Origin: Octopus vulgaris
Lineage: Eukaryota
Assembly: GCA_951406725.2 (NCBI GenBank)
Contig: OX597827.1
Coordinates: 44,702,001 to 44,766,000, forward strand
Reading direction: 5' to 3'
DNA: 64,000 nt
The notes under the pieces were generated by a model that did no database searches, was not told the DNA's origin, and was given only the letters and a program-made list of their open reading frames with translations. The stretch's first letter is position 1. Every line of letters begins with the position of its first letter. Below, in pieces: positions 17,076-44,071 of the stretch. The position numbers and the translations under genes are program-made.

Positions 17076-17116
<41 letters not shown>

Positions 17117-17495
17117 GTCTTTTATTTTTTTACTTGTTTCAGTTGTTTGACTGCAGCCATGCTGGAGCACTGCCTTTAGTCAAACAGATCAACCCCAGGT
17201 TTCATTCTTTGTAAGCCTAGTATTTATTCAGTCGGTTTCTTTTGTTGAACCGTTAAGTTCAGGGACATAAACACACCAACAACAGTTGTTAAGCGATGGT
17301 GGGGTGGGGGAGACAATCATAGACCCACAAATACATACACACAGATATATTTTCCATCTACCAAATTCACTCACAAGGCTTTGGTTGGCATAAGGCTATA
17401 GTAGAAGACACTTGCCCAAGGTGCCATGCAGTGGGACTGAACCCAGAACCATGTGGTTGGGAAGCAAGCTTCTTACCACACAATCACTCCTATAA
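16760..17495 (-). mobile_element. Two tandem family A SINEs (one degenerate, one near full length)
   Basis: Family A blocks in reverse orientation at about 16760-17075 and 17125-17495. Confidence 0.8.
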
Positions 17496-18594: not shown

Positions 18595-18823
18595 TTTCTT
18601 TATTGCCCCCAGGGGGCTAAACATAGAGGGGACAAACAAGGACAGACAAAGGGATCAAGTCGATTACATTGACTCCAGTTCATAACTAGTACTTATTTGA
18701 TCGACCCCAAAAGGATGAAAGGCAAAGTCGACCTTGGCGGAATTTGAACTCAGAACATAACAGCAGACGAAATACTGCTAAGCATTTTGCCCGGCGTGCT
18801 AACGATTCTGCCAGCTCGCCGCC
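18595..18823 (-). mobile_element. SINE family B, full length
   Basis: Reverse complement of 7051-7282. Confidence 0.88.
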
Positions 18824-20156
18824 TTTTATAAATATAATAGTTTGATTGCTGTTACGCCACATTAAATCATCATTGTCATCATCCAATCTTTTTGTTACCA
18901 TATTTCTGCTGAAATATACTGCCCTTGATTCAACTAATTTTATAAATAATGAAAAATTTGGTAACTATCTGGTTGTAGCCTGGTGCAGCCTTCTGGCTCA
19001 CCAGTCCTCAGTCAAACCATCCAACCTATGCCAGCATGGAAAGCGGACACTAAACGATGACGACGATGATGATGTCATTATTAATCTGGTATTTGCTACA
19101 TAAATTAAAATAAAAATTTGATGTAAGGTTTTAATTTAATTCACTGTAAAACAAGGATTATGTATCATATAATCAAGGGCAGTTTCAGGCAGGTTCGTAT
19201 CAAAAGGGTTCACTGCTGATATCATGCTGTCATAGGTGGGACAAGTTTGAGAGGGTCCAATGAGACAGAGGGCTACTTTAGGGAACAATGTTTGCTAGAT
19301 GCTGTTCCTAACACCAACTACTTTTACACTTTACGAAGTGTATTCTGTGCCTTCTTCACAGCAAAGGCACCAGTAAGGTCACCAAATAAATCACAATACA
19401 CAACAAACCTCTTGATAGAGTGAGGGTGCAGGATCTGGGAGGTAACCAGGTGTGAGGGAGAAATATTTTCACTGGTAATTATGATATACATACGATCATA
19501 TACAAACATATCTTAGTAAAATTTAAATTATTTATGTTCTGTTCAGGCCTTTTAAAAAATTTTTTGCAATGCATGTAAACAAGTGAACTAATGCAAGTCA
19601 TTTTTGCCCCAATCCATCATATTTCAGTGCATTCCTCTGTTTGTGTATGTGTGTTCACTTACATATATACAAGCATACATAAATACACATATACATACAT
19701 TCCACACTGGATTTCTGTGATAATTTATCTGATTTCTTTGTTACACACACACACACACACACACATGCACACGCACACACACACATACACACACACACAC
19801 ACGCGCACACACAGCTACAATAAGTGTGTTTGTATGTATACTCATTGACTGATTTCAAGCCATCTTCCTGTGCTCACATTATGCATTTAACTCCTCTGTG
19901 TGTGTGTGTGTGTGTGTATGTGTGTGTGTGTGCGCGCGCATATGGATGTGTATGTATTTGCTTCCTTATAATTATATTTATTTGTAGTCTGATAGAGATA
20001 AATAGATATATCTGTGTGTGTTTGTGTGTGTATATGTTTATGTATGTGTATATGTATATATATGTATGTGTATATGTATATATATGTATATATGTATGTG
20101 TATATGTATATATATGTATATATATATATGTATATATATATGTATATATATATATA

Positions 20157-20543
20157 TCTCTCTCTATATAAACGGCAGTTTGTCTGTGCGTGTTTCTGTG
20201 TGTCTGTTTGCTTGTACCCTCACCCTGACCACGGCTTTCAACCGATTCTGATGAAACTTGACACACACATAGCCCAATGTCATAATTCAAAACTAACGCA
20301 GCGAAAATTTTGAAAAGTTCCCCCAGTTCTGAAAAAAATTGATAAATTCGACATGGGGTCGAGAATCAGAAACACAAACCACAAACTGTCTAGGGGACGC
20401 AACTCCACCTTTTTTAACTCTCAAAAAAAAAAATTTACCATCATTTTTTTCCATTTTTTTTGCTATTTTTTTGCTATAACTCTCTAAAACTGCTTTATAG
20501 TTATTTCCCTTACAAACCTGAGCAACGCGGGATACTGCTATAG
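20157..20543 (+). mobile_element. Non-autonomous Helitron (second family)
   Basis: Starts A|TCTCTCTCTATATAAAC and ends CCTGAGCAACGCGGGATACTGCTATAG|T. The 3' terminus is similar to that of the 7877-8266 element but the interior differs. Confidence 0.75.
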
Positions 20544-21477
<934 letters not shown>

Positions 21478-22050
21478 GATGTTTAGGTTTGAATATGTAT
21501 TAATGTAATGTTTTTATAATGATGTATGTGCATCTTTTTGTACAGTTTGATCTCAAATATGATATAATATAACTCCCCTAAACATCAGTAATATATTTTA
21601 TCCTCTTTATCATTTTTTCCCTTTACACTTGAGTATAATGCTTCTAACCAATTTAGACTCTGATGGTTTGCATTAAATTTCTCATGTTTTACAGAAGTAC
21701 ATATGGTATGTATCTATGTATGTATGTATTTATGAATGTACATATATATATATTTATGTGTAGCAACCAATGTTTACTTTTCTTGATAATCATATCTGCA
21801 AGCATATATACATAGATATGTTTATAACATATTTATTTGTACAGTGGGACTGACCTCAGGAGCTACACGATTGCAAAACTAAATTCTCTACATGGCTATG
21901 CTTGTGAATGTGTGTGTGTGTGTTTGTGTTTGCTTGTGAAATAGAGAATAGCATTTCTCTATTTCAAACATTAAGATTAAAAGCCAGACATCAACCATGA
22001 ACAAGCGTGGTGTGATAACATGTACCATGTTTTCACTAATTATTTAGATA

Positions 22051-22125
22051 TTCTTGGTGGTATTAGTTATTGATGTATCCCTGCCTGTCATGTGGGAGAC
22101 CGGGGCTCAATTCCCCACTGGGAAG
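22051..22125 (+). pseudogene. tRNA-Asp(GTC) pseudogene
   Basis: TATCCCTGCCTGTCATGTGGGAGACCGGGGCTCAATTCCCCACTGGGAAG matches the eukaryotic tRNA-Asp segment TATCCCCGCCTGTCACGCGGGAGACCGGGGTTCGATTCCCCGACGGGGAG. The D arm and T loop are damaged, and a T5 run follows at 22136-22140. Confidence 0.8.
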
Positions 22126-22142
22126 GCCATTATACTTTTTAA

Positions 22143-22590
22143 GCACAGGCATGGATTGCTGCATGGTAAGAACTTTGCTTCCCAACAACATGGTTCTGGG
22201 TTCAGTCCCACTACATGACACTTTCAGCAAGTTTCTTTTATTATAGCCCTTGTGAGTGGATTTGATAAATGGAAACTGAAAGAAGCCCAGTGCGTGTGTG
22301 TGTGTGCGTGCTTGTTAGTGTTCATCCCCCATCATCACTTGACAGCCTGTGTTGGTTTGTTTACATTCCCATACCTTGGTGGTTCGTCTAAAAGGGACAT
22401 AAGCAGTAAGCACTAAGCTTAGGAAAAAATCAAGACCTTGGTGGTTCGTCTAAAAGGGACATAAGCAGTAAGCACTAAGCTTAGGAAAAAATCAAGACCT
22501 GGGCTCGATTTGTTTGACTAAACCCGTCAAAACAGTGTCCCAGCATGGCTGCAGTCCAATGACTGAAATGAGAAAAAGATGAAAGATCTA
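22143..22590 (+). mobile_element. SINE family A with internal 62-bp tandem duplication
   Basis: Family A blocks are present, and 22373-22434 is repeated exactly at 22435-22496. Confidence 0.8.
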
Positions 22591-23004
22591 TATAACTGTA
22601 ATCAGACATAGACACTCTCTTGAATCTCCTATTGTTTGGCTTAGTAGGACATCCAGTATGTAACAGCTGGAGGGAGAAGAGAGAGTGCTACACCAGCATT
22701 TGTCTAGGGCTCATTTTCAGGTGTGTAGATTGGAGCAAGCAATGTGAAATGAAGAGCTGTGCTCAAGGATACAACTTGCCACCCAACCCAGAAATTGAAC
22801 CAGCAATATCATGTTCAGGACTGTTGAGCCATGCACCTTCCTCTCAAACATATTGCAAACATATTTTTTATATCTATAGGCAACACCCTATTTGCATACA
22901 TGTTCATGCATTTCCCTGTGTGTGTGTGTGTGTGTTACATATTCTTATATTTATATGTAAGAATGGGGTGAACATGTCTAAAATTCTAGCTACAGTAATG
23001 TTGG

Positions 23005-23417
23005 ATTTACTTTTTTACTTGTTTCAGTCATGTGACTGTCGCCATGCTGGAGCACTGCCTTTAGTCGAGCAAATTGACCCCAGGACTTATTCTTTGTCAG
23101 CCTAGTACTTATTCTATCGGTCTCTTTTGCCGAACCGCTAAGTTATGGGGACGTAAACACACCACCATTGGTTGTCAAGCAATGTTGGGGGGGGGGGGGG
23201 ACAAACACAGTCACACAAACATATACACACACATACATATATATATATACACATATACGACAGGCTTCTTTCAGTTTCCGTCTACCAAATCCACTCACAA
23301 GGATTTGGTCAGCCCAATGCTATAGTAGAAGACACTTGCCCAAGGTGCCACGCAGTGGGAATGAACCCAGAACTATGTGGTTGGTAGGCAAGCTACTTAC
23401 CACACAGCCACTCCTTG
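23005..23417 (-). mobile_element. SINE family A, near full length
   Basis: Family A blocks in reverse orientation. Confidence 0.85.
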
Positions 23418-24031
23418 TAAATTTATGAATGGAATTATTTTCCAGATCATCTTCTATATCTGTCAAGCCATTTTTTTCTGTATCTGTCACTATAAATATG
23501 TCATTGACATACTTGGTACAGATAATACGATGATATTTAAGAATAACTTTGTTTTTTTAATGTTGTTAGCCATGTAAAAGAAAAAAAACCCCCAAAAATG
23601 CGGGCTACAGTGGAGAGCCCATAGTTACTTCATCCCCCTGGGATATAATGTGTATGCATTATAAGTAAGCATTAAATCAAAATAAAAGAGAAAGCCTAAA
23701 TACTAAGCAAAAATAAATAAAATTAATAAATAACCCAAAATTGATAAATGACAAAAGGCAAAAAAAAACCAAAACCAACGAGCAAAATGCAAGAGATAGA
23801 ATGTGTTTTTTGAGAAAGTCTATGAAGAATTAAGGAGAAAGCAATTTCCTCAAGACACTGTTAAATGGAATTATCCATCTGAAGCTGAAAGTTAATTCTT
23901 CGCAGATCAGCTTTCAGCAAGATAAAAATTCTTGCCAAATATTTATCATAATCATTTGCAACACAATACCATTTGTTTAAATAGACTGAGTGAAATGAGG
24001 TGGGGGGAGGGGGTAAGTCTCACTCCTCCCC

Positions 24032-24067
<36 letters not shown>

Positions 24068-24811
24068 CACCATCATCACCATCACTATTTGTACTGTTTC
24101 TTTCCAATTCTCTTTCGCTATGGTTACCCTGCTTCAAGGAAAGAAGCATATGGTGATGGTGGGGGGCGGGTACATCTCCTTCCCACCCGTATCACAAAAT
24201 ATAGTTTGTCATTTTACATTACCATCATCATCATCATAGTATCACCAAAATCATGATCATCATCATCATAACTACCATCAACATTACAATGATGATTATC
24301 ATCATTGTAACCATTGTCATCATCAGTATGGCTGTCATCAGCATCGTAGTACCATAATTCTCTTCCTTCTCCCCCTCTTCTTCGTCATCATTATCATCAT
24401 CATCATCAAAATAAGATTCCAAAGAAATTAGTGATACCCTACACCAACGAAATGGCAATACTGATAGTTTGAAACAGTGGAATATGTTTTTCATGTACTG
24501 AGGAAGAAAGAAAATCCTAATGTTTTGGATGGAATCCTTCCTCGGGGATAGAAACAAAATGCCAATAGGGGTTGAAGGATAAAAAAAATTTGGGGATTAG
24601 TAAGAGAGTGAAAGCAGGAAGGAGGAAGAAGAAGAGGTAACAAGTATTAGTAGAGGGAGCTGGGAAGTTTTAAGAGAGAGGAGAAAATAAAGGTAGCACC
24701 AGTAAATTTGAAGAATTTTGTGAGTAGAGGATTGGGGAAATGACAAGGAACACTGGACAGACAGACCTCTTCCACATGCTTTTATATCTATGCATCATTT
24801 AATTTAATTTA

Positions 24812-25045
24812 TTTCTTATTTACTGCCCACAAGGGGCTACACACAGAGGGGGCAAACAAGGACAGACAAATGGTTTAAGTCGATTATATCAACCCCAGTG
24901 TGTAACTGGTACTTATTTAATCGACCCCGAAAGGATGAAAGGCAAAGTCGACCTCGGCGGAATTTGAACTCAGAACGTAACGGAAACGAAATACCACTAA
25001 GCATTTTACCTGGCGTGCTAACGTTTCTGCCAGCTCGCGGCCTTC
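24812..25045 (-). mobile_element. SINE family B, full length
   Basis: Reverse complement of the family B consensus, with TTTAATTTAATTT on both flanks. Confidence 0.88.
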
Positions 25046-26064
25046 TTTAATTTAATTTTTTGGTATTTGGAGGATTGTGGGGCTCCAATATCTTATCTTG
25101 GGATGGTTTCTGTGGCTAAATGTCCTTCTGAATGCCAGCTGCTGTACAGGGTGTAGTGGGTGCTTTGTTCATGGTACCATTACTAATGAGGTAGGTAATC
25201 TAGCAACTTGCAAGGCTAAATAAGCCCCTGTAAGTAAATGAGAATAAGGAAGAGAGAGAGAGTGTGTGCATGTGTGTGTGTGATGGCTTTAGGTAAGGTG
25301 AAGGGAGATGGTGAAGAATGATGAAAACAGAATTATAGTCATGGGTTGGTGTACTAGAAAGAGAGTAACAAGGAAGTCAGTATAAGGTGGTGGGGAGGAG
25401 TTTGGAAGAAACAAGATAAAAGGGAAGAGATTAGATGTCACATGATCACTGTACATGTGCAGCATTGTCATACAAACGAAGATGTCTGCTTCCAGTCTTC
25501 TGCGAAAAAACATTCTAGCTAAGGGGAAATATTATTTTGGTGAGGGGTTGGCATCAAGCGGGGCATCTGGCTGTAGAAAGTTTGCCTCAACAAATTTTGT
25601 CTGACCTGTGCAAGCTAGAAAAATTGAACATTAAACAATGATGATGATGATGATACACAGAATCACAGACAGTTGCGAGTAACTACTGGCTGAGATTTTT
25701 ACCTGAAAAGTCAGAAATTTCCTCTCACACCACATGCCAACTTAAATAATTTTACTTTTATATACACACACACACATACACACACACACACACACACGCA
25801 CACAGATGTATGGACATTATGCATACATAGGCATACGTACAGATATACATGCTTACAGTCTTGTATAGCTGCAAAGAGGAGAGCCCTGAATCAAATGCCA
25901 ACATCTTAAAAAGGTCACTATGGACAATAGAATCCTTAGGATTGCAACTCAATAGCTTTATAATGAACATAAGTGGAGATATAAGGGCTATCAATATATA
26001 TATTTATATTGGATTGAGTGCTGCATTGGAAATACTCTGATTTTTTGCCCTTATAAGACCATCA

Positions 26065-26101
<37 letters not shown>

Positions 26102-26743
26102 TGAGTATGTTTTTGTGTACCTGTTCCTCTTTTCCCTTTCAATTTTTTTTTTTTTTTACAAATCTGTTAGTGTCCCTTTTATTTTCTCCTCTCCCTCTCT
26201 CTCTCACCAATATCACCTCCCACCACTAACACTTCTTACCTTTATCTCCTTTCCTTTTTTATGTTGGTTAATCCTTATTTATTCATCCTTCAACACCAGT
26301 TGACATTTCTCCCTCACTGATGAAGAGTTCCATCCACAAAACAGCCCCCAAAGCAGTTTGGCTTCTCTTCACCCTCAAGGCAATAAAAACCTTATTACAT
26401 ACTGTTTTTGTGTGTGTGTGTGTGTGTGTCATTGTTGTTAAAATGTATGAAAGGGAAAATTTTCTTCTGCCAGGAAGTGAAATGTCCACCCCCATCCCAC
26501 CCTGTTTGTGTTTCAGTACAAAAATAATGCAGTCACCTCATTCACCCATTAGTTTCCAACTATCAACCTACTGCTTCCCCCACCCCCGTATCAAACTATT
26601 TCTACCTCAAATCACTGCACCCTCTCCCTCATCCCACTTTATTAATTTTATGATGTCTTTCCTTTCTTTCTTTATCTGCCATTCTGATCCTTCATCTCCA
26701 GTTCTTGTTTTCCTCTATCTTCTCCCATTATATATGTACCTGC

Positions 26744-26954
26744 GGCGGCGAGCTGGCAGAACCGTTAGCACGCTGGGCGAAATGCGTAGCCATATTTCGT
26801 CTGCTGTTACGTTCTGAGTTCAAATTCCACCGAGGTCGACTTTGCCTTTCATCCTTTCTGGGTCGATAAATTAAGTACCAGTTATGCACTGGGATCGATA
26901 TCTGTCCTTGTTTGTCCCCTCTGTGTTTAGCCCCTTGTGGGTAGTAAAGAAATA
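26744..26954 (+). mobile_element. SINE family B with perfect 17-bp TSD
   Basis: ATTATATATGTACCTGC at 26727-26743 and 26955-26971. Confidence 0.9.
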
Positions 26955-27179
26955 ATTATATATGTACCTGCCTGTCGCTGTCCTGCTGTCTCCCTCCCGC
27001 CCGCCCTCCCCCTCTCTCTCCTCCACCCTCCCTCTCTGTTTATCTATATCTTGCATCTACACATGTGCACACTTATGTGCACATACACATACATGCTACA
27101 TCTCTCCTCACTTTCTAACCATATATCTTTCTGTCTACTGCCATTTTTTTGGCTATGGACCCTTTTGATTCCTATTTTA

Positions 27180-27643
27180 GGCGCAAGCATGACTGTCGTT
27201 AGGAAGTTTGCTTCCCAGTCACGTGGTTTCAGGTTCAGTCCCACTGCATGGTACCTTGGGCAAGTGTCTTCTGTTATAGCCTCGGGCCAACCAAAGCCTT
27301 GTAATTGAATTTGGTAGGTGGAAGTTATCAGCATGTGTGTACATGTGTAAGTGCTTGTGCCTCCTAACAGAGAGGGAGCCTCCACAGTCATTCAATGAAT
27401 ATCAAAAAAATCCTACTGTATTTTTATCATTAAATATTATTAAGAATTCTATAGAAATACTTTAATTTCTTGTGTAGGCGCAAGCATGGCTGTGTGGTAA
27501 GTAGCTTGCTTCCCAACCATATGGTTCCAAGTTCAGTCCTGCTGTGTGACACCTTGGCCAAATTGTCCTTTATTATAGCTTCAGGCCAACCAAAACCTTG
27601 TGAGTGGATTTGGTAGATGGAAAGTAAATACAATACATCATGT

Positions 27644-27696
<53 letters not shown>

Positions 27697-27941
27697 GACA
27701 CGCACATGCACATATATATATACTTTTATTTGTTTCAGTCGTTTGACTGTGGCCATGCTGGAACACCGCCTTTAGTTGAACAAATTGAACCCAGGACTTA
27801 TTCTTTGTAAGCCTAGTACTTATTCTATCGGTCGTTTTTGTCAAACCACTAAGTTACAGGGACATAAACACACCAACTTCGGTTGTTAAACGATGGGGGG
27901 AGTACAAACACAAACACACACACACACATACATATGTACAT

Positions 27942-27980
<39 letters not shown>

Positions 27981-28270
27981 ACAGGCTTCTTTCAGTTTCC
28001 ATCTGCTAAATCCACTCACAAAGCTTTGGTTGGCCTGAGGCTATAGTAGAAGACACTTGCCCAAGGTGTCACACAGTGGGACTGAACCAGGAACCATGTG
28101 ATTAGGAAGCAAGGCTTTGGCCAGCTCGAGGCTATAGTAGAAGACACTTGCCCATAGTACCAGGCTTAAAAAAAAAAGGTAGTAGGATCAATTTATTCTA
28201 CTAAGAGCTCTTCAAGACGATGCCCTAGCATGGCCACAGTCTAAAGACTGAAACAAGTGAAAGATAAAAG
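27180..28270. mobile_element. Cluster of family A SINE pieces in both orientations, nested in a hAT-like MITE
   Basis: Plus-strand heads at about 27180-27320 and 27476-27625, a minus-strand copy at about 27722-28112, and a plus-strand tail at about 28155-28270. MITE halves lie at about 27135-27180 and 28325-28348. Confidence 0.7.
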
Positions 28271-28449
28271 ATACTGTAGGAGTATAAACAGTTTATTGCC
28301 CAAATTTTAACAGCACAATCTTATATAGACCCTGGTTGGGAACCACTGCCATAGATATTCCCCAAATTACTCTCTCTATTTCTCTCTCTCTCTCTCTCTC
28401 TACAATTTCACGTTTTCAGTATGCACATCATCATCATATTCATCACAGT

Positions 28450-28645
28450 TGGCACGTAAAAAGCACCCACTACACTCACGGAGTGGTTGGCGTTAGGAAG
28501 GGCATCCAGCCGTAGAAACACTGCCAGATTTGACTGGGCCTGATGAAGCCTTCTGGCTTCACAGACCCCAGTAGAACCGTCCAACCCATGCTAGCATGGA
28601 AAACGGACGCTAAACGATGATGATGATGATTATGATGATGATGAT
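28450..28645 (+). mobile_element. Repeat family D (GGCACGTAAAAAGCACCC..GGAAGGGCATCCAGC..CCAACCCATGC..(GAT)n), probable SINE/LINE 3' end
   Basis: Further copies at about 10970-11158, 18970-19075, 25540-25650, 53245-53420 and 63575-63765, plus reverse fragments at about 43760-43880, 58710-58850 and 60970-61090. The trinucleotide tail is typical of RTE-mobilised elements. Confidence 0.75.
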
Positions 28646-28973
28646 TACACACTATCTATTTGAATGTCTATCCACTTGTCCACTATCCTATCTAACTACT
28701 TCTTTTAATCCTCATGCATATCATTTCCATATATGTGTGTGTGTGTGTGTGAGTGCAGGCTTGTGCATATGTGCGTGTGTGTGCATATATGTATGTAAAA
28801 GAATATGTATAATATATGCATATATATATTTATGTGTGTGTGTGTGTATGTGTGTATATATATATATATATATAATAATATATATACTAAAAAAAATGGA
28901 GAAAAAAGACAATAAGAAAAAACAACACAAGGACATGGTACATGCAAAGTATTAATAAGATTCTCAGGGAATA

Positions 28974-29029
<56 letters not shown>

Positions 29030-29039
29030 GTTTGAATGT

Positions 29040-29165
29040 ACAACAAACAAAAGACAGACAGGTGAGAGAACAAGAATCTAGGTATATTAGTTTAACACAC
29101 AGGAAAAATGGAGAAGTTTCAATGTTTCGAGCGTACACTCTTCAACAGGAAGGGACAAGGAAAAT
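29040..29165 (-). mobile_element. Penelope-like terminal repeat fragment with hammerhead-like fold
   Basis: Minus strand reads TTC-CTGTTGA-A-GAGTG-TA-CGCTC-GAAA-CATT-GAA and is homologous to 52226-52340. Confidence 0.55.
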
Positions 29166-29495
29166 AAATAGAGAAAGTGAAAGGAAATAGAGAAAGAAAA
29201 AAAATGTGTCAAAGATTAATGTTTCCGCATGTGTGTGTGTGTATGACAGGTTTCATATACCTTCCAGCTATCAAATTCATTCACAAGACATTGGTTAGCC
29301 AAGGGTTACAGTAGAAGGTAATTGCACCGGATGCTACACAGTGGGATTGATCTCCAAATCATGTGGTTGCAAAATAAGCTTCTCGATGACAAATCATACC
29401 TACACCTGTATTTTATTTTATGTATTTTATTTGAAACATGGTCATGAAAGTATTAAGTCAATAGTTTCTTTTTCTTTATCTTTTATTTTGTAAAG

Positions 29496-29543
<48 letters not shown>

Positions 29544-29631
29544 ATGATTATGTTGCTATTTGAATTGTATAATTAGTCCAGACTACTGGCTCCAATATAC
29601 AGTAGTTAACATGTTATATTTTTTTAAATAA

Positions 29632-29677
29632 CCTCTCTTAATTTTCTCTCTCTTTCTTGTTTCTTTTGCAGGTAAGT
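29632..29677 (+). promoter_or_regulatory. Candidate recursive splice site (3' splice site fused to a 5' splice site)
   Basis: ATTTTCTCTCTCTTTCTTGTTTCTTTTGCAG|GTAAGT, with AG at 29670-29671 and GT at 29672-29673, in non-repetitive sequence. Confidence 0.65.
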
Positions 29678-30379
29678 CACACTATTTCGGTAGACATCTA
29701 TCTGTCTATCTTCCTATGCCTCCTCATCTTGCCTCACTTCTCCTCTCAGTGAAGTCTCTCAGAACAAAACACAATCAATATTTCAAACATTGTTTGAGAT
29801 ATCATCAGCAGCAGCAGTAATAGTGATGGTGGTGGTGTAATGTTTTGTAGCGGTGGTGGCGGCGTAGTAGGTAAGTATGCGGTGGTAGTGGTGGTGGTGA
29901 AGTTAGTTCTCTTTTCATTAAAATTTTTTTTATTCCTCCCCACATCTCTCTCCAGCCTTCTCCACCCTCTACTCACCACCATTAAATCTGATTATTATTT
30001 TCATCTTGCTGTTGTTGTGCTGTATTGTTTTGAACTTCTCTGTTAAAATGTAAGGTCAACTGGTACTGTGAGTACTATTTCATGTGGTGAATATAACATA
30101 TACAAACACACATGTATGTATGCACACACACACACACACAATGGCTGAGGTGAATATATGCACAACATAATTCTATTGTCAAACGTCTCCATCTTAGTTA
30201 TCTTTGTTATCATATTTTTGCTCTGACTGAAATTATTCATTTTTATTGAGCTCTTTGCTAAAATGTTTTACACCAGTGAATATTGTCTTGTATTTGCAAG
30301 GTAGTTATTTCCATTATTACTCATATTACTATACACACTGTATAGTGGTTGGCATTAGGTAGGACATCCTGAATGTTTC

Positions 30380-30612
30380 CTATTTCTTTATTGCCCACAA
30401 GGGGCTAAACATAGAGGGGACAAACAAGGACAGACAAACGGATTAAGTTGATTATATCAACCCCAGTGCATAACTGGTACTTAATTTATCGACCCCAAAA
30501 GGATGAAAGGCAAAGTCGACCTTGACGGAATCTGAACTCAGAATGTAACGGTAGACGAAATACTGCTAAGCATTTCGCCCAGTGTGCCAACGATTCTGCC
30601 AGCTCGCCGTCT
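30380..30612 (-). mobile_element. SINE family B, full length with TSD
   Basis: Flanked by GACATCCTGAATGTTTC and GACATCCAGAATGTTTC. Confidence 0.88.
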
Positions 30613-30882
30613 TAATGACATCCAGAATGTTTCTGCAAACATTAACTTACAACTATAAAAACTGAATATTAACCATATGAATTTCAGCAGGCCCTGAAAG
30701 CCTAAAAAACATCATAGGCTCTTCTCCCAACTAAACCATAAGTTTAGTCCCTAAAATTTCAATATAAGCTGGCTGATCTTCGTCGTTATTTTTTTTTTTT
30801 TTTTTTAATAGTAACATATCATTTGTGACTGTTCCATTCTGAAATTTTAAAAAATAAATTAATAATATATAAAGATAAAAAA

Positions 30883-31265
30883 CGTGGCAGTGTGGTAACT
30901 AGCTTGCTTCCCAACCTCATGGTTCTGGGTTCAGTCCCACTGCGTGGCACCTTGGGCAAGTGTCTTCTACTATAGCCTCGGGCTGACCAAAGCCTTGCAA
31001 GTAGATTTGGTAGACGGAAACTGGAAGAAGCCCGTTGTGTATTTGTATATATGTGTGTATGTTTGTGTGTCTGTGTTTGTCCCCCCAACATCACTTGACA
31101 ACCAATGCTGGTGTGTTTACGTCCCCGTAACTTAGCGATTCAGCAAAAGAGACCGATAGAATAAGTACTAGGCTTACAAAGAATAAGTCCTGGGGTCGAT
31201 TTGTTCAACTAAAGGTGGTGCTCCAGCATGGCCACAGTCAAATGACTGAAACAAGTAAAAGAGAG
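30883..31265 (+). mobile_element. SINE family A, near full length
   Basis: All family A blocks are present with low divergence. Confidence 0.87.
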
Positions 31266-31454
31266 TATGGTTTCACTTAAAGATATCTATCTTTTATTTG
31301 TTTCAATCATTAGCTTGTAGCCATGGTGGGGCACTACCCTGAATTATTTTTAGTTGAACACATTGACCACAGCACTTTTATTAAAAGCTTGATACTTATT
31401 CTGTCAGCCTCTTTTACCAAACCACTGAAGAAGAAGAAGAAGAAGAAGAGCATT

Positions 31455-31755
31455 TGGTTACGTTGACAAGGGTCGCAGCTGATACGATCGACGGAACAGC
31501 TTGCTCAGGAAATTAACGTGCAAGTGGCTGAGCATTCCACAGACACGTGTACCTTAACGTAGTTCGCAAGCGTGACACAGAATGTGACAAAGCTAGCCCT
31601 TTGAAATACAGTTACAACTCATTTTTGCTAGCTGAGTGGACTGGAGAAACATGAAATAAAGTGTCTTGCTCAAGGACACAACGCATCGCCAGGAATCGAA
31701 CTCACAACCTTACAATCATGAGTCAAATGCCCTAACCACTAAGCCACGCGCGCTC
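31455..31755 (-). mobile_element. SINE family C
   Basis: Reverse tRNA head (TGGCTTAGTGG..GAGTTCGATTCC) plus GTGTCCTTGAGCAAGACACTTTA. Homologous to about 39185-39500, 55165-55465 and 58085-58330. Confidence 0.82.
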
Positions 31756-31994
31756 ACTACCAAACCACTAAGCACAGGTTGTCAAGCAGAAGTGGGGGAC
31801 ACAAACACACACACACATGTATGCTGTTATTTAGCTGAAGATCACTCCTGATTGAGTAGACCTGTAATCAAAAGTTTGGCAGTTGTGACCATCTTATCAT
31901 TTTCTATATCAGGGACCACACTGTCCATTCTACCTTTTTGCATTTAATGCAGTAAGGGTGAGTCTCGAGAGATTTGGCTTCTATTCCCAGAGGA

Positions 31995-32687
31995 TTAATC
32001 CTTCTGTTACTATTATATTTCTGTCGAAGCACTGCCTTTGTTTCAATTGATTTTTAAAATAATGGAGAATTTTGTAAAATAATTTTGGTCATAATTAAGC
32101 TGGCGTTTGAAACATAAATTAACATGAAATTTTGATGAAAGATTTCAATTTAGATCACTTTGACAGGATGTTTGTGTCATAAAACCAGGAGCTGTTTCAG
32201 GCAGATTTGGTATTAAAATGGTTTAGCAATCCTGTAGGGATTCCCTAGTTTGGCTTCATTCATTTTTCATTTCACCAATCTTGGTAACTAAGAGGCTCTC
32301 ATAGTTACCTCTAAGAATGAAATGAAATGAAATGGATGAAGATACTGATGATGATGCTGTTGATAATGTCAGCATCATTATGTCAATTATCTAACTCTGA
32401 AGACCAGTTCTTCAGCAACAATTCCATTGTCCCAACCCTTACATTCCCCCCTGACCCACTTTAACCCTTTTGTTATCATATTTCTATTAAAATACTCTGC
32501 CTTTGTTCCATTCACTTTTTGAAATGATGAAGAATTCAGTAAAATAACTTTGTTGTTAATAAGCTGCTGCCTTGAACAAATTAACATGAAATTTTGATGG
32601 AAGAATTGGATTTGGATTGCTTTAAAATAGGAAGTGTGTGTCATGGAAACAGGGGGCAGTCTCAGGTGGGTTGGTATTAAGAGTTAA
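31995..32687 (+). mobile_element. Two direct copies of the second TTAA-type MITE family (about 31995-32224 and 32461-32687)
   Basis: TTAACCCTTTTG...AAGAGTTAA ends and a shared body (AATTAACATGAAATTTTGATG). Also found at about 18886-19211 and 45525-45716. Confidence 0.65.
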
Positions 32688-32875
32688 TATTTAATAGGGT
32701 TGATGTTAGCTTTGAGTCGTTAGACTGTCAACTAAATAGATGTCAGTTCATTTTTTCTACCGACACTGCGTATTGTTAGTGGTCTAAATACTTAGCTCTC
32801 ACCAGCTCAGTCAAACTAATTGTAAAATAGGTATAGGTACCAAAGTTCCAATACAGTTCTATCAAGGAAGCCCGT

Positions 32876-33140
32876 GGGCATATAGCATAGTGGTACTAAC
32901 CCCAAGATTCTGAGTTCAATTCCAGGCAGTACCTTGAATAAATAACAATAATAATAATAATATTTAAAAAATACCTTAGGAATGAGAACCCAGGGTTGAG
33001 TTCAAAATTCCACGAAGACACCTGATGATGGCTGGAGAGTAAATCAGCCAAAACGTTGTGGTAACAACAAAGAAGATGAGGACACGTATCTGTCCAATGT
33101 AAATAATGTATAGAATTCTTCATCTCTCAAATATAAAACA
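32876..33140 (+). mobile_element. tRNA-headed SINE-like element with a minimal type I hammerhead ribozyme motif (G12 position mutated)
   Basis: A-box TAGCATAGTGG at 32883-32893, B-box GAGTTCAATTCC at 32912-32923, an (AAT)n linker, then ACAC-CTGATGA-T-GGCTG-loop-CAGCC-AAAA-CGTT-GTG at 33018-33060. Confidence 0.6.
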
Positions 33141-34052
33141 GAATGGTTTGTTACTACTATGAAATGTGGTAGTGTAATATATTGCACTGCTGAGTCCTTT
33201 CAGCTTGGCTTGGCTTGGTATGGGCCAAAACAGAAATTGCTCTCCTCACATCCCTCTTTGGCACAACCAATTCTCATCAATTGTTGCATGTCATAAACAA
33301 GTGGTCTTCAAGGAATGATGCAACCCGAATATTGCACCTGGTTTTTGCTCTCTTTATTTATTTATTTATTTATTTATTATAAGCCCATCTACCTACAGCG
33401 ATCCTCTCTGTATCCGTATCTTTTGCCAACGACGGCAGATTAACATTCCACATACAATGCTTTGCAACTTGATAAATTTTCAATTGAAAAATATTTCACA
33501 TGATGAAAGGCTTGCCTTGTAAAATATTCGATGGAAACAGCAGCAGCAGCAGCAGCACCAGCAGCACCAGCAGTCTACTTTCAGTGATACTACTGGTGTG
33601 TGAATCGTAGCAACATTAAAGAGCAATTTAATAGCAAGATTAAAGCATTTCATTTTTAAAAACTGCCTTTTATTTTGTTTATATTTCATGTAAATCTTTG
33701 CTTTGTTTTCTTTTTAATTCATTTATTTTATTTTATTTATTTATTTTTTTGGTTTTTTTTTTTCTTTCAAATTTCTAATTTTCCATTCGAAATTATTATC
33801 CAATAACGTTGAAAATTATCTTTCATAGATGGTGTTTTTTTTTGCTTTTTTTTTTTAAATTTTAGTTTGTTCATTGGTTTTAAATTTTTATATTTATGAT
33901 TTGCAAAAAAAAAAAAAAAAGATTACTTTTATTTTTTTTTCTTCTGTTCTTCTAAATTTTAATCAGTCAGGTGCTTGTGTAATGCGAAATGCTGATAAGT
34001 TTATTACAATTATTATTATTATTATTATTATTATTATTGTATATTAGAAACA

Positions 34053-34083
<31 letters not shown>

Positions 34084-35534
34084 TTTGATATATTTTATGT
34101 AGTTGACATGATTATTGGTACTATTAACTATTATCGTTATTAATATTATTATTACCATCGACTGCTGGTGTTATTAATGATATTGTTGTTTTCATTAATA
34201 CCATTAACGTTTATTAGCATTGTTGTTGTGGTGGTGGTGGTGGTGGTGGTGGTGGTATTGGTAGGAGTAGCAGTGGTAGTGTTATACACCAACAACAAAG
34301 ACAACAATAGTAGTGATAGTGGTGGTGGCAGTGGCGGTGGTGGTGGTTGGTGGTTATTTTAAATGCATTCAAAGAGAAAAACTACAAGTTTATAGCTGCT
34401 AATTATTTTGTATTGGAGTCAAATATATTTCATCCTTCTTCCAAACCGCCCATCCTCTCTTTCTCTCTCTCTCTCTCCCCCCTCCCTCTCTCTCTCTCTC
34501 TCTCACTCACTCTCTCCATCTTATCCTTCCTTGCTCAGCACATGAATTACCTATTTGTGATGCTGTATATTGTGTGTGTGTGCGTGTGCGTGTGCGTGTG
34601 TGTGTGTGTGTGTGTATGTGTGTGTGTGTGAAAACACACCTGTGTGTGTATGTATGTATGTATGTGTGTCTCAGTTGTTACAATTTATTGATTATTTCTG
34701 GCAGTAGAGATGATTCTGTATTTGAGGAAATCTATCTTAATTAATGGTGAAAAATGTTGAAAATTTTTCTATCTTCTATTTTATAAATGAATTCAGGTTA
34801 GGTTTTGAATATTTAGCAGCTTTTATTAAATTTTGCTGACCCCACCAGGCTTCAATTAGAGCAAATGTTTGCTAAAGAAAATTGATGATGATGATGATGA
34901 TGATGATGACAGGTGATGATGGTGGTGGTGGTGGTGGTGGTGGTAGTGGTGCTGCTGCTGCTGCTGCCGCTGCTGCTGGTGTTATGGAGGTGATGTGCTT
35001 TGTTGTCATGATAGAAGTGATTGTGATATTACTGTTGTTGTTGAGAGCTAAGTGATGGGAGGAGGATAGGGAGGTGCAGGAGGAGAGCGCAAAGAAAAGA
35101 AGAAATGAAAATAAATATATACAAATAAAAAAAAATATATATGAATATCAAATATCTTAGAACTTGAATGCTTCTTGCCCCTCCCTCTCCACTCATCTCT
35201 TTCTCTCTTCTCCCCCTCTCTCTGAAGGTCCCCCTCTCTCTCTATCTCCCTCCCCCTCTCTCTGAAGGTCTTTTAGAGGTTATTGATCACTGCTGCTATG
35301 TAATAAGTACATTGCTTTGTATTTTCTTCCTTCTTTTTTTTTTCTACTTTCTTAGTATTTTTGCATCCATTTATCCAGACAGTTGACAACTCTCACTTGC
35401 AATGTCTTCATATTCTACCAGAACACTTTTTCCTAGGTAGGAATGCCTGTCAAGAATGTTGCACTAACAAAAACAAGCTTGCACTTTTTCATAGCACATT
35501 AGTTCTAGTAATAATAATAATAATAATAATAATA

Positions 35535-36375
35535 AAAACAATGGTTTCAAATTTTGCCACAAGGGCAGCAATTTTGAGGGAGGGCTACTTATTTTATTGA
35601 TCCCTATAGGATAAAAGGTAAAGTCGACGTTGGCAGAATTTGAACTCAGAACATAAAATGGACGAAATGCTGCTAAGTGTTTTGCCCAGTGCAGTAATGA
35701 TTCTACCAGCTCACCACCTTAACATGAAGACAGGTGAAATTCCTCTGAGTATTTTATCTGGCATGCTAACGATTTTGCCAGCACGCTGCCAATAATTGTA
35801 ATAATAACAACAATCCATTCTACTTACAGGCACAAGGTCTGAAATTTGGGGAGAGGAGGCAAATCAATTATATTGCCTCCACTGTTCAACTGGTACTTAT
35901 TTTATCCACCCCCAAAAGAATGAAAGACAGAGTCAGTCTTGGCTGAATTTGAACTCAGACCATAAACCCAGAAGAAATGCCAATAAGCATTTTGTCTGGC
36001 ATGTTAATGGTTCCGCCACCTCTTGACCTTAGCTAATGATAATAATAATAGTTTCAAATTTTGGCACAAGGCCAGCAAGTTTAGGGTTAGGGGTAAGTCA
36101 ATTACATCAACCCACTGCTCAACTGGTACTTATTTTTATTGACCCCGAAAGGCTGAAAGGCAAAATTGGCCTCGGTGGAATTTGAACTCAGAATATAAAG
36201 ACAGACAAAATGTCACTAAGCATTTTGCTCGGCATGCTAATGATTCTACCAGCTCGTAATAGTAATAATAATAATCCTTTCTGCTATTGGCACAAGGCCT
36301 GAATTTTGTGACCAGGGGACTAGTCAATTACGTCCACCCCAGTGCACAGCTGGTACTTATTTTATTGACCCAGCG
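35535..36375 (-). mobile_element. Head-to-tail array of 4-5 family B-related SINEs
   Basis: Recurrent GAATTTGAACTCAGA, CTGGTACTTATTTTAT and GCACAAGG units separated by (AAT)n. Confidence 0.75.
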
Positions 36376-36917
36376 CCACCTTGTCTGGCGTCCATGCCGG
36401 TAGCATGTAAAAAGCACTCACTACACTCACAGAGTGGTTGGCATTAATTGGAGAGTTGAGAGACCTAGTTGCTTAACTCTTTCATTACTGTATTTACTTT
36501 GAGATGTTCTGTGTTTCTTTCAATTATTTTAGATAAATAAAAGAATTTAGTAAAATAACGTAGTTACTATTAAGCTAGTGTTAGGAACATAAATTGTGAC
36601 TAAGGTTTGGTGGAAGATTTTAATTCAAAACTTATGAAAACAAGACATTTGTACTACAGAGCTGGTTGCATGTCACTGGTACTTCTTTGTCAATATCAGA
36701 AAGTGTCAAAGCAAATATGGCAAGGTATTTTATCCGTTATTCTCATGATTTTGCCAATCCATTGGTCTTCAGTTCAAGTCAGCGAGATTTGAAACAATGA
36801 AATATCACAAAGCATTTTGTACCATGACATGGTAGAGGTTGTTTGTTCAGCTCCCCAAGTCAATCTTCCACCCATGACCAATTCATTTATTTATTTTGAA
36901 AACATACTATTTTCTTT

Positions 36918-37115
36918 TTAACCCTTTAGCATTTGAACTGGCCATATCAAGCCAAAGTATTCTATTTGTTTTATGTTCAAACTGGCCAAAAACCGTCTCT
37001 TACACCTACCCTACGATGTCAAACCAAAAGTAAACCATCCCCAAATCAAAATCTCAAAGCAACAAGATAATACATAATTAATTCAAAACAATATGTATGA
37101 ATAAGTATCACATTT
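36918..37115 (-). mobile_element. TTAA/piggyBac-type MITE (first family), reverse, truncated
   Basis: TTAACCCTTTAGCATTTGAACTGGCCATAT is the reverse complement of the right end of 45852-46062. Confidence 0.7.
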
Positions 37116-37309
37116 GGCAGCATCAAGACATTATGCTTTGATGTGAAAGTGATTTAGCTCCTGTTTCTTGTTGGTCAAAGGACCATGTGGAGTTTGCCCA
37201 TTGGCTACTAGTAGTGGTGGTGATGATGTGAGAGAAGTAGTAGTAATAGTTGTTGTTTAGTTCCGCATCATTCTTAAATCAAGCTGTCCAAGAAAGAGCA
37301 TTCCAGCTA

Positions 37310-37505
37310 TACTCTTTACTCTTTTACTTGTTTCAGTCATTTGAGTACGGCCATGCTGGAGCACTGCCTTTAGTCGAACAAATCGACCCCAAGACTTATT
37401 CTTTGTAAGCCTAGTACTTATTCTATCGGTCTCTTTTGCCAAACTGCTAAGTTACGGGGACGTAAACACACCAGCATCAGTTGTCAAGCGACGTTGGGGG
37501 GACAA

Positions 37506-37538
<33 letters not shown>

Positions 37539-37690
37539 CATATACATATTTACGATGGGCTTCTTTCAGTTTCTGTCTACCAAATCCACTCACAATGCTT
37601 TGGTCAGAAGAGACTTGCCCAAGGTGCCATGCAGTGGGACTGAACCATGTGCTTGGTAAGCAAGTTACTTATCACACAGCCACTCCTGTG
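37310..37690 (-). mobile_element. SINE family A
   Basis: Family A blocks in reverse orientation. Confidence 0.85.
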
Positions 37691-38394
37691 GCTATGTCTA
37701 TTTTGTCTATATTTTTCTGGCACAATGTTATCCAACATAGGCATTTCTTTCCAAAGTGCAAGGATGAGACTCATAGGAAATTTGACTGCTACTTCTAGCA
37801 AATTGAATGATGTTTGTGTTTTTGCTGTGGAACCTTGATCTGTTGCAATCAATCTCATGTCGCTTTTGCAATAGTTTGCACCTCTGTACGCAAACTCCTT
37901 GTTATCCAGCATATGCTTCTCTTTCTCAAGATGCTCGGGTGTGACTCAAAAGATATCCCGGCTGCTATTTCTTGCTGGTTGGATGTAATATTTGTACGTT
38001 TGCTGTGACAACCTTGGTCTGATGCAATTAATCACGTGTTGCTTTTGTGTTAGTGTGCCCCGCTGCACACAACCGCCTGGTTGACTGGCCAGTACAGCAG
38101 CAGCTACAGACTAATTCAAGTTTAAGATAATTGTAGGTAATAAATACTTAGTTTATCTGCTAGAGTGAAACACATCAAACGACAATCATCTTTCACAATG
38201 TTTTATTTTTATTTATTGTTTCTCTCTCTCTCTTTTTATTTTTTTTTTTGCTTTTTTTTTTTTTTATCTTCCTTAAGACAGAGACAGACTTTGCCACAAT
38301 TTCTGGAAATTTCTGAAACTATAGCAAATAATACCTCTTGCACATACATCAAGCACATTACTAGCTCTTTATTTCTCTTTCTCTCACTCACTCA

Positions 38395-38439
<45 letters not shown>

Positions 38440-39184
38440 TGTGTCTTACTCATTTTTCTCTTCAGTAAAAGATAATGGTGAGAAAAGATGGTAGAGTATC
38501 ATCAGAATGTTGTAATTCTACTCTAGAATCACTCCTTGATTTTTTACATGAAAATTTGACCTTAGGGTGGGAGAGTAGAAGTAGGAAGAAGGAAGCTCCC
38601 TAACCCTACCCTAGTTCATCTACCACAACCCACCCCCATCTTCCTCCACTATCTATTATCTCAGTGCAGACTTGAAATGAGTCAGACAAAAGCTATCCTG
38701 GAGCTAAGCAATATTATTGGGGGTTGGGGGCTGATTTTTTTTTTTCATGGGCTCCAGATTATGACTGTTGGGGTGGGAGGCAGAGGAACTATTGTTGTTT
38801 TGCCCTAGGTCAAACCTGCTTTTACCAAACTCAGGATCAAAGGCATTCTATCCCCCATATTGTTTGCCAGCTAAGTCCATTGAGGACTACATTATTCAAT
38901 GTTACCCTCCAATTTTTTGTCTCTGGCCATTCTCTGCAGTAACGCCTTTGGAGTAATGTCCATGAGACACAGGCTGAACACACTATTTAGGTGGGGATGT
39001 TATTTCCTCTATCCTTATTTTCTGCTGCTTTATTTCACCCCCTTTTATTCTTTATCTTTGTTTCCTTGGCGAAGTAATTTTTGTTTTTGTTGATTATTTT
39101 ATCTTTTATGCTTTTAATTTTTTTTTTTTTTTTGCTGTCTTCCTACAAAAATGTTGTTAACAAAATGGGGTTTTTACTGGCAGC

Positions 39185-39500
39185 CCATCAGTTACAGTGA
39201 GGATTCCAGTTGGTTCAATCTACAGAACAGCCTGCTCATGAATTTAACGTGCAAGTGACTGAGCATGCCATGTACATGCGTACCCTTAACATAGTTCTCA
39301 GGGAGATTCAGCATAACACAGAATGTGATAAGGCTGGCTCTTTTGAGATACAGGTACTACTCATTTTTGCCAGCTGAGTGGACTGGAAAAATGAGAAATA
39401 AAGTGTCTTGCTCAAGGACACAACACACCGCTGGAAATTGAACTCACAATGTTACAATCGTGAGCTGACTACCCAAACCAGTATGCCACACACACCTTCA
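39185..39500 (-). mobile_element. SINE family C
   Basis: Homologous to 31455-31755. Confidence 0.8.
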
Positions 39501-39616
39501 CAAAATGGGGTTTTTATACCATCATTCTAATTTACAGCTCAATGGAGACAGACTTGCTAGGTCAACTGTTAAAAGTAGGGGTAGAGTTGATTATACCACT
39601 TCTCTTCACATATATA

Positions 39617-39790
39617 TACAGGGTGCAGTGAATAAACAGTCGTCTAAATTAATCAAAAATGAAAGTAACACAGACATCGCATTTTAATAGATATATTTAT
39701 CAAAATTACATAGAAATATCTTCAAATACTAAAATGTAAATTCATTCAATAAAATCGCCATTGGCTCCAGCCGTGGCTTCCAGGATGATT
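39617..39790. mobile_element. Possible Tc1/mariner terminal fragment
   Basis: TA|CAGGGTG start after (TA)n. No partner TIR was found. Confidence 0.35.
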
Positions 39791-39853
39791 TCAGAGTCTA
39801 AATTATTGACCCACTGCAAAAATATTTTAACTTGAAACAGTGTGAAAATACTA

Positions 39854-40457
39854 TTAACCCATTAACATTCAAATTAGTCTGCCAAATGTTATGCTTATTT
39901 ATTACTTCCGCCTTTGGCAAGGCGGAGGTATGGTTTTTAGTCCTGTTTGTTTGTTTGTTTGTTTGTCAATGGACAAGATATCTCAAGAACCGCTGGATAG
40001 ATTCAGATGAAACTTTCAGAGATGGTTGGCCTCACGACTGGCACAAACTGATTAGATTTTGGGATCAATCCAGTACCGCACAAAGATTCTGGATTATTTT
40101 TCTTGTATTTTTACTTAATTTTTGAGAGCGTTCCAGTTCATTTTTAGTATCCTCATTTGTGAGAGCAGTCGAGTTTATTTCAGATATTCTCATTTTAAAA
40201 ATCATCCCCAGCTAATTGTTGAGAGACGTTAGTGTTGCCTTGGTGGAGGGTTGCACTCTTTGAGTGCTCGTTCACAATGTTTTCAGTTTAATCAATCATG
40301 CATTATCTCATAGCTATGAGATTTCGATGATATGATGATGTGTCATATTTAGAATGACATTGTAGGGTAGTGTGAGAGGCCAGGTATAGTTAATTTGAAA
40401 ATAAAACAGGCAGACTATTTAGGCCAGATATGGCCAGTTGAAATGCTAAAGGATTAA
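39854..40457 (+). mobile_element. TTAA-type MITE (first family) split by a Helentron-type insertion
   Basis: TTAACCCATTAAC ... GCTAAAGGATTAA ends. The body resumes at about 40271. Confidence 0.7.
39899..40272 (+). mobile_element. Helentron-associated non-autonomous element (HINE/DINE-1-like)
   Basis: 5' palindrome ACTTCCGCCTT-TGGC-AAGGCGGAGGT (39904-39929), (GTTT)n microsatellite, 3' subterminal GGTGGAGG, 3' hairpin GCACTC-TTT-GAGTGC (40253-40267), and T-rich flanks. Confidence 0.78.

Positions 40458-42081: not shown

Positions 42082-42112
<31 letters not shown>

Positions 42113-44034: not shown

Positions 44035-44071
<37 letters not shown>

What the first reader, a model, noticed from the sequence alone, without database searches (positions are those of the whole stretch)
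29632..29677. Near-perfect zero-length exon: candidate recursive splicing ratchet point in a giant intron
Seen: a ~35-nt AG-free polypyrimidine tract ending TTTTGCAG, followed immediately by the perfect donor GTAAGT. It sits in unique sequence near the middle of 64 kb with no recognisable exon, and TTAAC/CTTAAT branch-like motifs lie at about 29606 and 29637. Known: AG|GTRAGT ratchet points remove very long introns stepwise in Drosophila and in long vertebrate neuronal genes. Inference: this window is part of a plus-strand giant intron processed recursively. I am not aware of this being characterised in cephalopods, but cannot verify that. Alternatively it is the acceptor of an exon or RS-exon beginning GTAAGT.
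Basis: partly seen in the sequence, partly recalled or inferred. Interest (0 to 1): 0.75.

Follow-up and report, generated by a model that had tools for sequence, protein, structure and literature searches.

The report
Stepwise-splicing site in giant octopus intron
Near the middle of the 268-kb first intron of the octopus MAEA gene, a strong splice acceptor directly abuts a perfect splice donor; it is one of dozens of such sites in this genome and likely lets very long introns be cut out in steps, as in fruit flies.

Summary
The motif is real: a 64-nt AG-free zone, CAG, then GTAAGT at 29672. The whole window lies in intron 1 (267,573 nt) of MAEA, a ubiquitin-ligase subunit gene on the + strand of an Octopus vulgaris genome. 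The site is on the sense strand, 55% of the way along. A near-perfect second donor 199 nt downstream outlines a cryptic exon with stops in all frames; a second ratchet-like site lies 54 kb upstream. Genome-wide, Y13-N-CAG is followed by GTAAGT 75 times, against about 15 expected from non-donor hexamers. Within 500 kb, 19 of 20 pairs of such a site with another donor-like site share a strand, and cryptic donors are enriched just downstream. Two further sites lie sense in a 111-kb gap of the Cast/ELKS gene. This fits fly-type recursive splicing with cryptic RS-exons. No junction, lariat or sawtooth was seen: only contigs were available, and conservation was inconclusive. My searches found no report for cephalopods or molluscs. 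The scan has noted zero-length-exon candidates in other genomes (fungi, protists, vertebrate-like DNA), none listed for this one. Verdict: new member of a known kind; use inferred, not shown.

The parts
1..64000 (+). Part of intron 1 of MAEA (267,573 nt; G000:C14:44585530-44853102). Exon 1 ends about 116 kb before the window, exon 2 starts about 87 kb after it.
   Evidence: Exons found in fetched flanks, matched to human MAEA in PDB 8pjn and to the annotated proteins P0001/P0002; length; no N in the 464 kb that hold it
29606..29669 (+). AG-exclusion zone, 64 nt
29606..29610 (+). Distal branch-point-like TTAAC (less likely, about 62 nt from the AG)
   Evidence: sequence; role inferred
29637..29642 (+). 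Likely branch point CTTAAT, A at 29641, 30 nt before the junction
   Evidence: sequence; role inferred from the usual branch-point distance (own knowledge)
29632..29667 (+). Polypyrimidine tract, 33 of 36 pyrimidines
29669..29671 (+). Acceptor CAG of the ratchet point
   Evidence: best of 4,043 AG-GT sites on both strands of 664 kb, 28.6 bits with a matrix trained on other sites
29672..29677 (+). Donor GTAAGT, predicted to be regenerated after exon 1 is spliced to the CAG
   Evidence: use inferred
29672..29870 (+). Predicted cryptic RS-exon, 199 nt, stops in all three frames (codon 27 in the MAEA frame)
   Evidence: boundaries inferred from the downstream donor
29868..29878 (+). Downstream donor TAG|GTAAGTAT (GT at 29871), 10 of 11 matches to the U1-pairing consensus
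   Evidence: 3 such GT sites on the sense and 1 on the antisense strand of the whole intron; consensus recalled

Best explanation
This is an acceptor-donor junction on the sense strand, 55% of the way through the 267.6-kb first intron of octopus MAEA, and it likely works as a recursive-splicing ratchet point. Likely course: as transcription passes the site, the 199-nt cryptic exon is defined by the strong acceptor and the donor at 29871. The upstream donor (exon 1, or the second ratchet-like site 54 kb upstream) would be spliced to the CAG. That would leave exon 1's terminal AAG in front of GTAAGT, a stronger donor than exon 1's own. This donor would be spliced to exon 2, 121 kb on, removing the cryptic exon so that nothing shows in the mRNA. 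The intron would come out as 146 + 121 kb, or 92 + 54 + 121 kb. Shown: motif, host, strand, position, second donor, genome-wide excess and strand clustering. Inferred: every RNA step.
For: (1) Host and strand: MAEA exons 1-4 all on +, site inside intron 1, split 146,142 + 121,431 nt. Octopus, argonaut and other mollusc proteins join exon 1 to exon 2 with no insert. (2) Best-scoring of 4,043 AG-GT sites in 664 kb; the second best (26.0 bits) is in the same intron and strand; antisense maximum 14.1. (3) Genome-wide, hexamer after Y13-N-CAG: GTAAGT 75, GTGAGT 28, GTAAGA 32, GTATGT 24; seven non-donor hexamers 6-35 each. Scaled for composition, GTAAGT is 4.9-fold and GTGAGT 3.3-fold over the non-donors. 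For the one-purine pattern that includes this site: 10 hits against about 3.5 expected (my arithmetic). (4) Within 500 kb: 10 GTAAGT-GTAAGT pairs (1.3 expected), 9 on the same strand; 10 of 10 GTAAGT-other-donor pairs on the same strand; 0 GTAAGT-non-donor pairs. Independent set: 3 of 9 new sites lie within 500 kb of a known one, all same strand, against 0 of 16 controls. (5) Cryptic-exon signature in the first 30 of 75 sites: a donor of at least 7/9 at +20..+110 in 10 of 30, against 6.5% of 660 control windows and 0 of 30 antisense; 26 of 30 have all frames closed within 90 nt. (6) Second host: two sites lie sense in a 111-kb gap between Cast/ELKS exons; 4 ratchet-like sites on +, 0 on - in that 200 kb. 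(7) Same anatomy as fly ratchet points: long and first introns, near midpoints, cryptic exon (PMC6110457, PMC8605326; passages).
Against: No junction read, lariat or sawtooth was obtained. About 20% of the strict hits (15 of 75) and about 35% of this site's own pattern class are expected without selection, and a window like this one gives such a motif at 0.04. The non-donor controls also gave 10 close pairs, 8 on the same strand; 6 come from one cluster that holds three identical matches, but the control is not empty. Pairs within one cluster are not independent. The 199-nt cryptic exon is longer than the roughly 50 nt of flies, and its donor equals the regenerated donor in the core (8 of 9 each) and beats it over 11 positions (10 against 8), whereas fly ratchet donors generally win (PMC8605326). 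MAEA intron 2 (109.8 kb) has no comparable site. Hosts were found for only 1 of 3 other clusters examined. Conservation was inconclusive.
Confidence: 0.8

Rival explanations
1. It is mainly a regulated poison cassette exon. The 199-nt exon is included through the donor at 29871, adds a stop at codon 27 and sends MAEA mRNA to nonsense-mediated decay; the GTAAGT at its start is secondary.
For: Very strong downstream donor (10 of 11). AGGTAAGT occurs only twice on the sense strand of the 267.6-kb intron, and these are the two ends of this exon. Stops in all frames.
Against: A poison exon does not need a perfect donor at its first base. The genome-wide class shows that donor in excess with mostly weaker downstream donors. 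No protein with an insert between exons 1 and 2 was seen, though decay would hide it. This is also one outcome of the RS-exon mechanism, so the two readings overlap.
Confidence: 0.1
2. It is a chance juxtaposition in microsatellite-rich intron DNA and is not used.
For: 0.04 such motifs per window under a Markov model; about 3.5 of 10 in its pattern class expected by chance; no RNA proof.
Against: It would also have to fall by chance on the sense strand, near the middle of a giant first intron, with a 64-nt AG-free zone, a branch-like motif at -30, a second top-scoring site in the same intron and a 10/11 donor within 200 nt (about 0.002 within 300 nt; my arithmetic, post hoc).
Confidence: 0.07
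3. It is an ordinary internal exon of another plus-strand transcript (non-coding, or from an unknown promoter inside the intron) that happens to start with GTAAGT.
For: A complete acceptor-exon-donor unit is present; non-coding exons would escape my coding-exon search.
Against: No coding partner exon was found in the intron. The odd N-terminus of one O. bimaculoides model maps to a repeat 1.4 kb before exon 2, far from this site. It does not explain the genome-wide excess.
Confidence: 0.03

Closest known systems
Drosophila intronic ratchet points with cryptic RS-exons (PMC8605326, PMC6110457; passages read)
   Same: Pyrimidine tract-CAG|GTAAGT on the sense strand of a very long first intron, near its midpoint, several per intron, with a downstream donor that closes an out-of-frame cryptic exon; many sites per genome.
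   Different: Predicted segments here are 54-146 kb in MAEA and 5-69 kb in Cast/ELKS, against typically 9-15 kb in flies. This cryptic exon is 199 nt against about 50 nt, and its donor is as strong as the regenerated one. No RNA proof here.
Mammalian RS-exons in long introns (Sibley 2015, seen only as cited in PMC8605326 and PMC5126111)
   Same: Intron of hundreds of kb; cryptic exon whose inclusion would shift the frame or add a stop; donor competition decides the outcome.
   Different: Only nine fully suppressed mammalian sites were noted (PMC8605326), and vertebrate long introns show little motif excess (ratio up to 1.5; PMC2773006 Table 2). Octopus has about 60 excess sites from the strictest pattern alone. 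The host here is a ubiquitin-ligase subunit.
Computed RP-site enrichment in sea urchin, mosquito, bee and beetle long introns (PMC2773006; passages)
   Same: Sequence-only evidence of selection for acceptor-donor junctions in an invertebrate with long introns.
   Different: That study used annotated introns and sense/antisense ratios and included no mollusc ('mollus' 0 occurrences); mine uses hexamer controls, clustering and two mapped hosts.

Membership tests
Intronic ratchet point (recursive splice site, fly type) | Complete 3' splice site directly followed by a consensus 5' splice site | tested here: met
Intronic ratchet point (recursive splice site, fly type) | On the sense strand inside a very long intron | tested here: met
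   MAEA intron 1, 267,573 nt, + strand
Intronic ratchet point (recursive splice site, fly type) | Downstream donor defining a cryptic RS-exon | tested here: met
   donor at +199, 10 of 11; enrichment across 30 other sites. Sequence only
Intronic ratchet point (recursive splice site, fly type) | No trace in the main mRNA (flanking exons joined directly) | tested here: met
   P0001-P0005, P0011, P0046, P0049, P0051 run exon 1 into exon 2 without insert; minor decayed forms would not show
Intronic ratchet point (recursive splice site, fly type) | Motif class enriched over controls in the genome | tested here: met
   75 against about 15; same-strand clustering. Sense/antisense ratio in annotated introns not computed
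Intronic ratchet point (recursive splice site, fly type) | Regenerated donor outcompetes the RS-exon donor | tested here: inconclusive
   8 of 9 each in the core; 8 against 10 of 11 with positions +7/+8; simple match count, no trained model
Intronic ratchet point (recursive splice site, fly type) | Junction reads from the upstream donor into the site; sawtooth cover; lariat from the site | tested here: inconclusive
   only contigs of runs guessed to be RNA; tables cut; no joint listed at 29672
Intronic ratchet point (recursive splice site, fly type) | Conservation of the acceptor-donor core across related species | tested here: inconclusive
   contigs of organisms B and E lay on 29562-29781 at 80% or more, but no base-level rows were shown there
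Intronic ratchet point (recursive splice site, fly type) | Weakening the ratchet donor causes cryptic-exon inclusion | not testable with these tools
   needs a minigene or genome edit
Neural microexon (3-27 nt) | A short exon between an upstream AG and the GT | tested here: not met
   no AG for 64 nt before the CAG, so no microexon can end at 29671; size range recalled

The most novel reading that the evidence does not exclude
Octopus uses fly-type recursive splicing at scale, the first such case in a lophotrochozoan, with probably hundreds of sites and steps several times longer than in flies. At MAEA the cryptic exon's donor is strong enough to compete, so the ratchet point doubles as a poison-exon switch that couples stepwise removal of a 268-kb intron to the level of a CTLH ubiquitin-ligase subunit.
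Probability: 0.3. Interest if true: 0.7.

Novelty: new member of a known kind. Interest (0 to 1): 0.55.

Why it matters
Recursive splicing is documented in flies and mammals and predicted from sequence in other insects and sea urchin; I found no report for molluscs. Octopus has vertebrate-sized, repeat-rich introns but appears to carry a fly-like excess of ratchet motifs. That makes three open questions testable: whether the mechanism is ancestral in bilaterians or re-evolves when introns grow, whether step length scales with intron size, and whether it serves only neuronal genes (MAEA here is not one; Cast/ELKS is). The list of 75 strict sites and two mapped hosts is a ready target set for existing total-RNA data.

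Tried and rejected
RNA: no RNA holder listed on record for 29540-35500. One laying on 27692-30991 of X1, X2 (guessed RNA, organism A, one study) and X18, X19 (organisms B, E) gave contigs only, swamped by repeats, with 2,594 joints and 5,704 loose ends not shown. None shown lies at 29672. One X1 contig covers 29674-29852 without differences, inside the proposed cryptic exon; X1 and X2 have no cover in 29452-29671 and some from 29672 on. Contigs cannot show starts, strand or level and the runs may hold DNA, so I do not count this. X18 and X19 cover 29562-29671 (depth 22 and 27) better than 30002-30221 (1-4), but bases were not shown; not counted as conservation. Control Y13-N-CAH-GTAAGT (204 hits, 100 listed) was set aside because one repeated string dominates the listed rows. 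The reversed-pattern control (2 against 75) is weak and not relied on. Host search failed for the C21 and C2 clusters: the best C21 candidate exon hit only a 62-aa fragment without family and a retroelement protein. Two further intron-1 motifs (C14:44637793, 12.8 bits; 44601275, 5.6 bits) score within the antisense range and are not claimed. Microexon reading rejected (no upstream AG). Repeat origin rejected. Long ORFs in the window are microsatellite or repeat reading frames. Paper searches: recursive splicing + octopus 0 papers; + cephalopod 1 and + mollus 2, each with single mentions and unrelated titles, seen as listings only; RS-exon + MAEA 0; two searches were too loose to inform. The Sibley 2015 text was not held. 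No supplements were read. Earlier notes of the scan: none near the window; none on recursive splicing among 8 shown of 130 for this genome.

Full report
Observation. The sequence is as described: a pyrimidine tract at 29632-29667, CAG at 29669-29671 and GTAAGT at 29672-29677, with branch-like TTAAC (29606) and CTTAAT (29637). The AG-free zone is 64 nt. The stretch is single-copy. Taken alone it is not very rare: the loose pattern gives 3 matches against 1.16 expected, and a strict definition appears 6 times in 150 Markov copies of the window. So I looked for context.

Host gene. The window is G000:C14:44702001-44766000. In 664 kb fetched around it, an exon search found plus-strand exons at C14:44853103-288 and 44963137-340. 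They match human MAEA residues 24-84 and 86-152 (PDB 8pjn; E 2e-14 and 1e-19). A first coding exon ends at C14:44585529. The annotated protein P0001 (named MAEA-like, Octopus vulgaris, on a contig of the same length as C14) and its mollusc relatives run this exon straight into exon 2. Intron 1 is therefore 267,573 nt, without N. The site is on its sense strand and divides it into 146,142 and 121,431 nt.

Rest of the intron. With a matrix trained on other sites, this site is the best of 4,043 AG-GT sites on both strands of the 664 kb (28.6 bits). The second best (26.0 bits, C14:44677515, TAG|GTATGT, 129-nt AG-free zone) is in the same intron, 54 kb upstream. The best antisense site scores 14.1. 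Intron 2 (109,848 nt) has nothing comparable. At +199 lies TAG|GTAAGTAT, 10 of 11 matches to the U1-pairing consensus (recalled). The intron holds 3 such sites on the sense and 1 on the antisense strand. The enclosed 199 nt have stops in all frames, at codon 27 in the MAEA frame. Exon 1's own donor is weak (6 of 11); the donor regenerated at the site would score 8 of 11.

Genome-wide test. After Y13-N-CAG, GTAAGT occurs 75 times. Its 12 GT-starting single-change neighbours give 78, 39, 45 and 49 hits in four groups of three. Scaled by base composition to seven non-donor hexamers, the ratios are GTAAGT 4.9, GTGAGT 3.3, GTAAGA 2.1, GTATGT 1.6 and 0.4-1.3 for the rest; all 286 rows were used. The excess follows donor strength, which ordinary exon starts would not need. 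The site itself has one purine in the 13 positions and is not among the 75. Its own pattern gives 10 hits against 16 for three control hexamers, about 3.5 expected.

Clustering. Within 500 kb there are 10 GTAAGT-GTAAGT pairs (1.3 expected, at most 6 in 500 placements), 9 on one strand. All 10 pairs of GTAAGT with another donor-like hexamer share a strand, and there are no pairs with non-donors. Against this, the non-donor set has 10 pairs of its own, 8 on one strand, 6 of them from one cluster with three identical matches; pairs in a cluster are not independent. In the separate pattern, 3 of 9 new sites fall within 500 kb of a known one, all on the same strand, against 0 of 16 controls.

Anatomy of the class. 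In the first 30 of the 75 sites the median AG-free zone is 54 nt, and 26 of 30 have all frames closed within 90 nt. GTRAG is found 13 times at +28..+100 (6 per kb, against 1-2 per kb further away, 0 antisense). A donor of at least 7 of 9 lies at +20..+110 in 10 of 30, against 6.5% of 660 control windows (p about 1e-4). This is the cryptic RS-exon signature described in flies.

Other hosts. I fetched 200 kb around three clusters. On C24 the host is Cast/ELKS on +. Two sites lie sense in the 111-kb gap between the exons matching profile positions 1-69 and 99-209, which would give 69.5 + 36.6 + 5.4 kb; a small exon in between is not excluded. For C21 and C2 no host was identified.

RNA and conservation. 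Neither could be decided. The runs offered were contigs, and none was on record as RNA. Details are under Tried and rejected.

Mechanism. Most likely the 199-nt exon is defined during transcription, the upstream donor is spliced to the CAG, and the regenerated donor is then spliced to exon 2, discarding the cryptic exon. All RNA steps are inferred from the fly and mammalian model (PMC8605326, passages; PMC5126111, part 1 of 3 read). Because the two donors tie in the core and the downstream one has two more matches, some inclusion followed by decay is plausible. That is the bolder reading.

Comparison and novelty. Fly sites occur in most introns over 40 kb, near midpoints and in first introns, with pieces of about 9-15 kb (PMC6110457, passages). 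A 2009 computation found motif excess in insects and sea urchin but not vertebrates, and had no mollusc (PMC2773006, passages). A 2026 review lists Drosophila, mice and humans (PMC13149111, passages). PMC10156609 and PMC7222433 were seen in passages and add no mollusc case. Searches for recursive splicing with octopus, cephalopod or mollusc found nothing relevant; the library lacks most subscription papers. It works like a fly ratchet point and meets every sequence criterion that I could test, while the RNA criteria are open. I file it as a new member of a known kind, in a new lineage, at interest 0.55.

Noticed in passing
G000:C14:44677515 (L049:5515), 24.5 kb before the window: Second ratchet-like site in MAEA intron 1: 129-nt AG-free zone, TAG|GTATGT, 26.0 bits, with a donor-like GTAAGC 26 nt downstream.
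   Followed up: partly
G000:C14, after 44965795: The 3' half of MAEA (residues 187-390 of P0002) was not found in 200 kb downstream or elsewhere in this assembly; the annotated protein is 224 aa with an unrelated last exon, while O. sinensis and argonaut have 390 aa. Probably missing sequence in the assembly.
   Followed up: partly
G000:C14 about 45024440 (L077): T-tract followed by AAG|GTAAGC on +, 22.5 bits, 59 kb after exon 4; would fit a further long MAEA intron, but AAG is a poor acceptor.
   Followed up: no
G000:C24:46558658-46731239 (L182-L200): Cast/ELKS (Bruchpilot-like) gene on + with four ratchet-like sites on its strand: two in a 111-kb gap and two after the last Cast-matching exon.
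   Followed up: partly
G000:C13:4468664-4805400 (+), C8:15104034-15578287 (-), C6:97123276-97256261 (-), C23:40186290-40454875 (+): Same-strand runs of 2-3 strict sites 80-330 kb apart; likely markers of giant genes, hosts not identified.
   Followed up: no
matches, many contigs: A repeat family carries a 13-pyrimidine tract followed by CAA-GTAAGT, one base from the ratchet motif; it could be a source of new sites, not examined.
   Followed up: no
window 20539-21474: 936-nt TA-rich array.
   Followed up: no
window 46683-46931 (+); G000:C14:44825443-44826186 (+): Short mariner-like transposase remnant in the window and a 248-aa GIY-YIG-like frame further on in intron 1 (labels recalled, not tested).
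   Followed up: no
G000:C14:44851680-44851727: The N-terminus of one O. bimaculoides MAEA model (P0047) maps to a repeat 1.4 kb before exon 2; probably a gene-model artefact caused by the giant first intron.
   Followed up: yes
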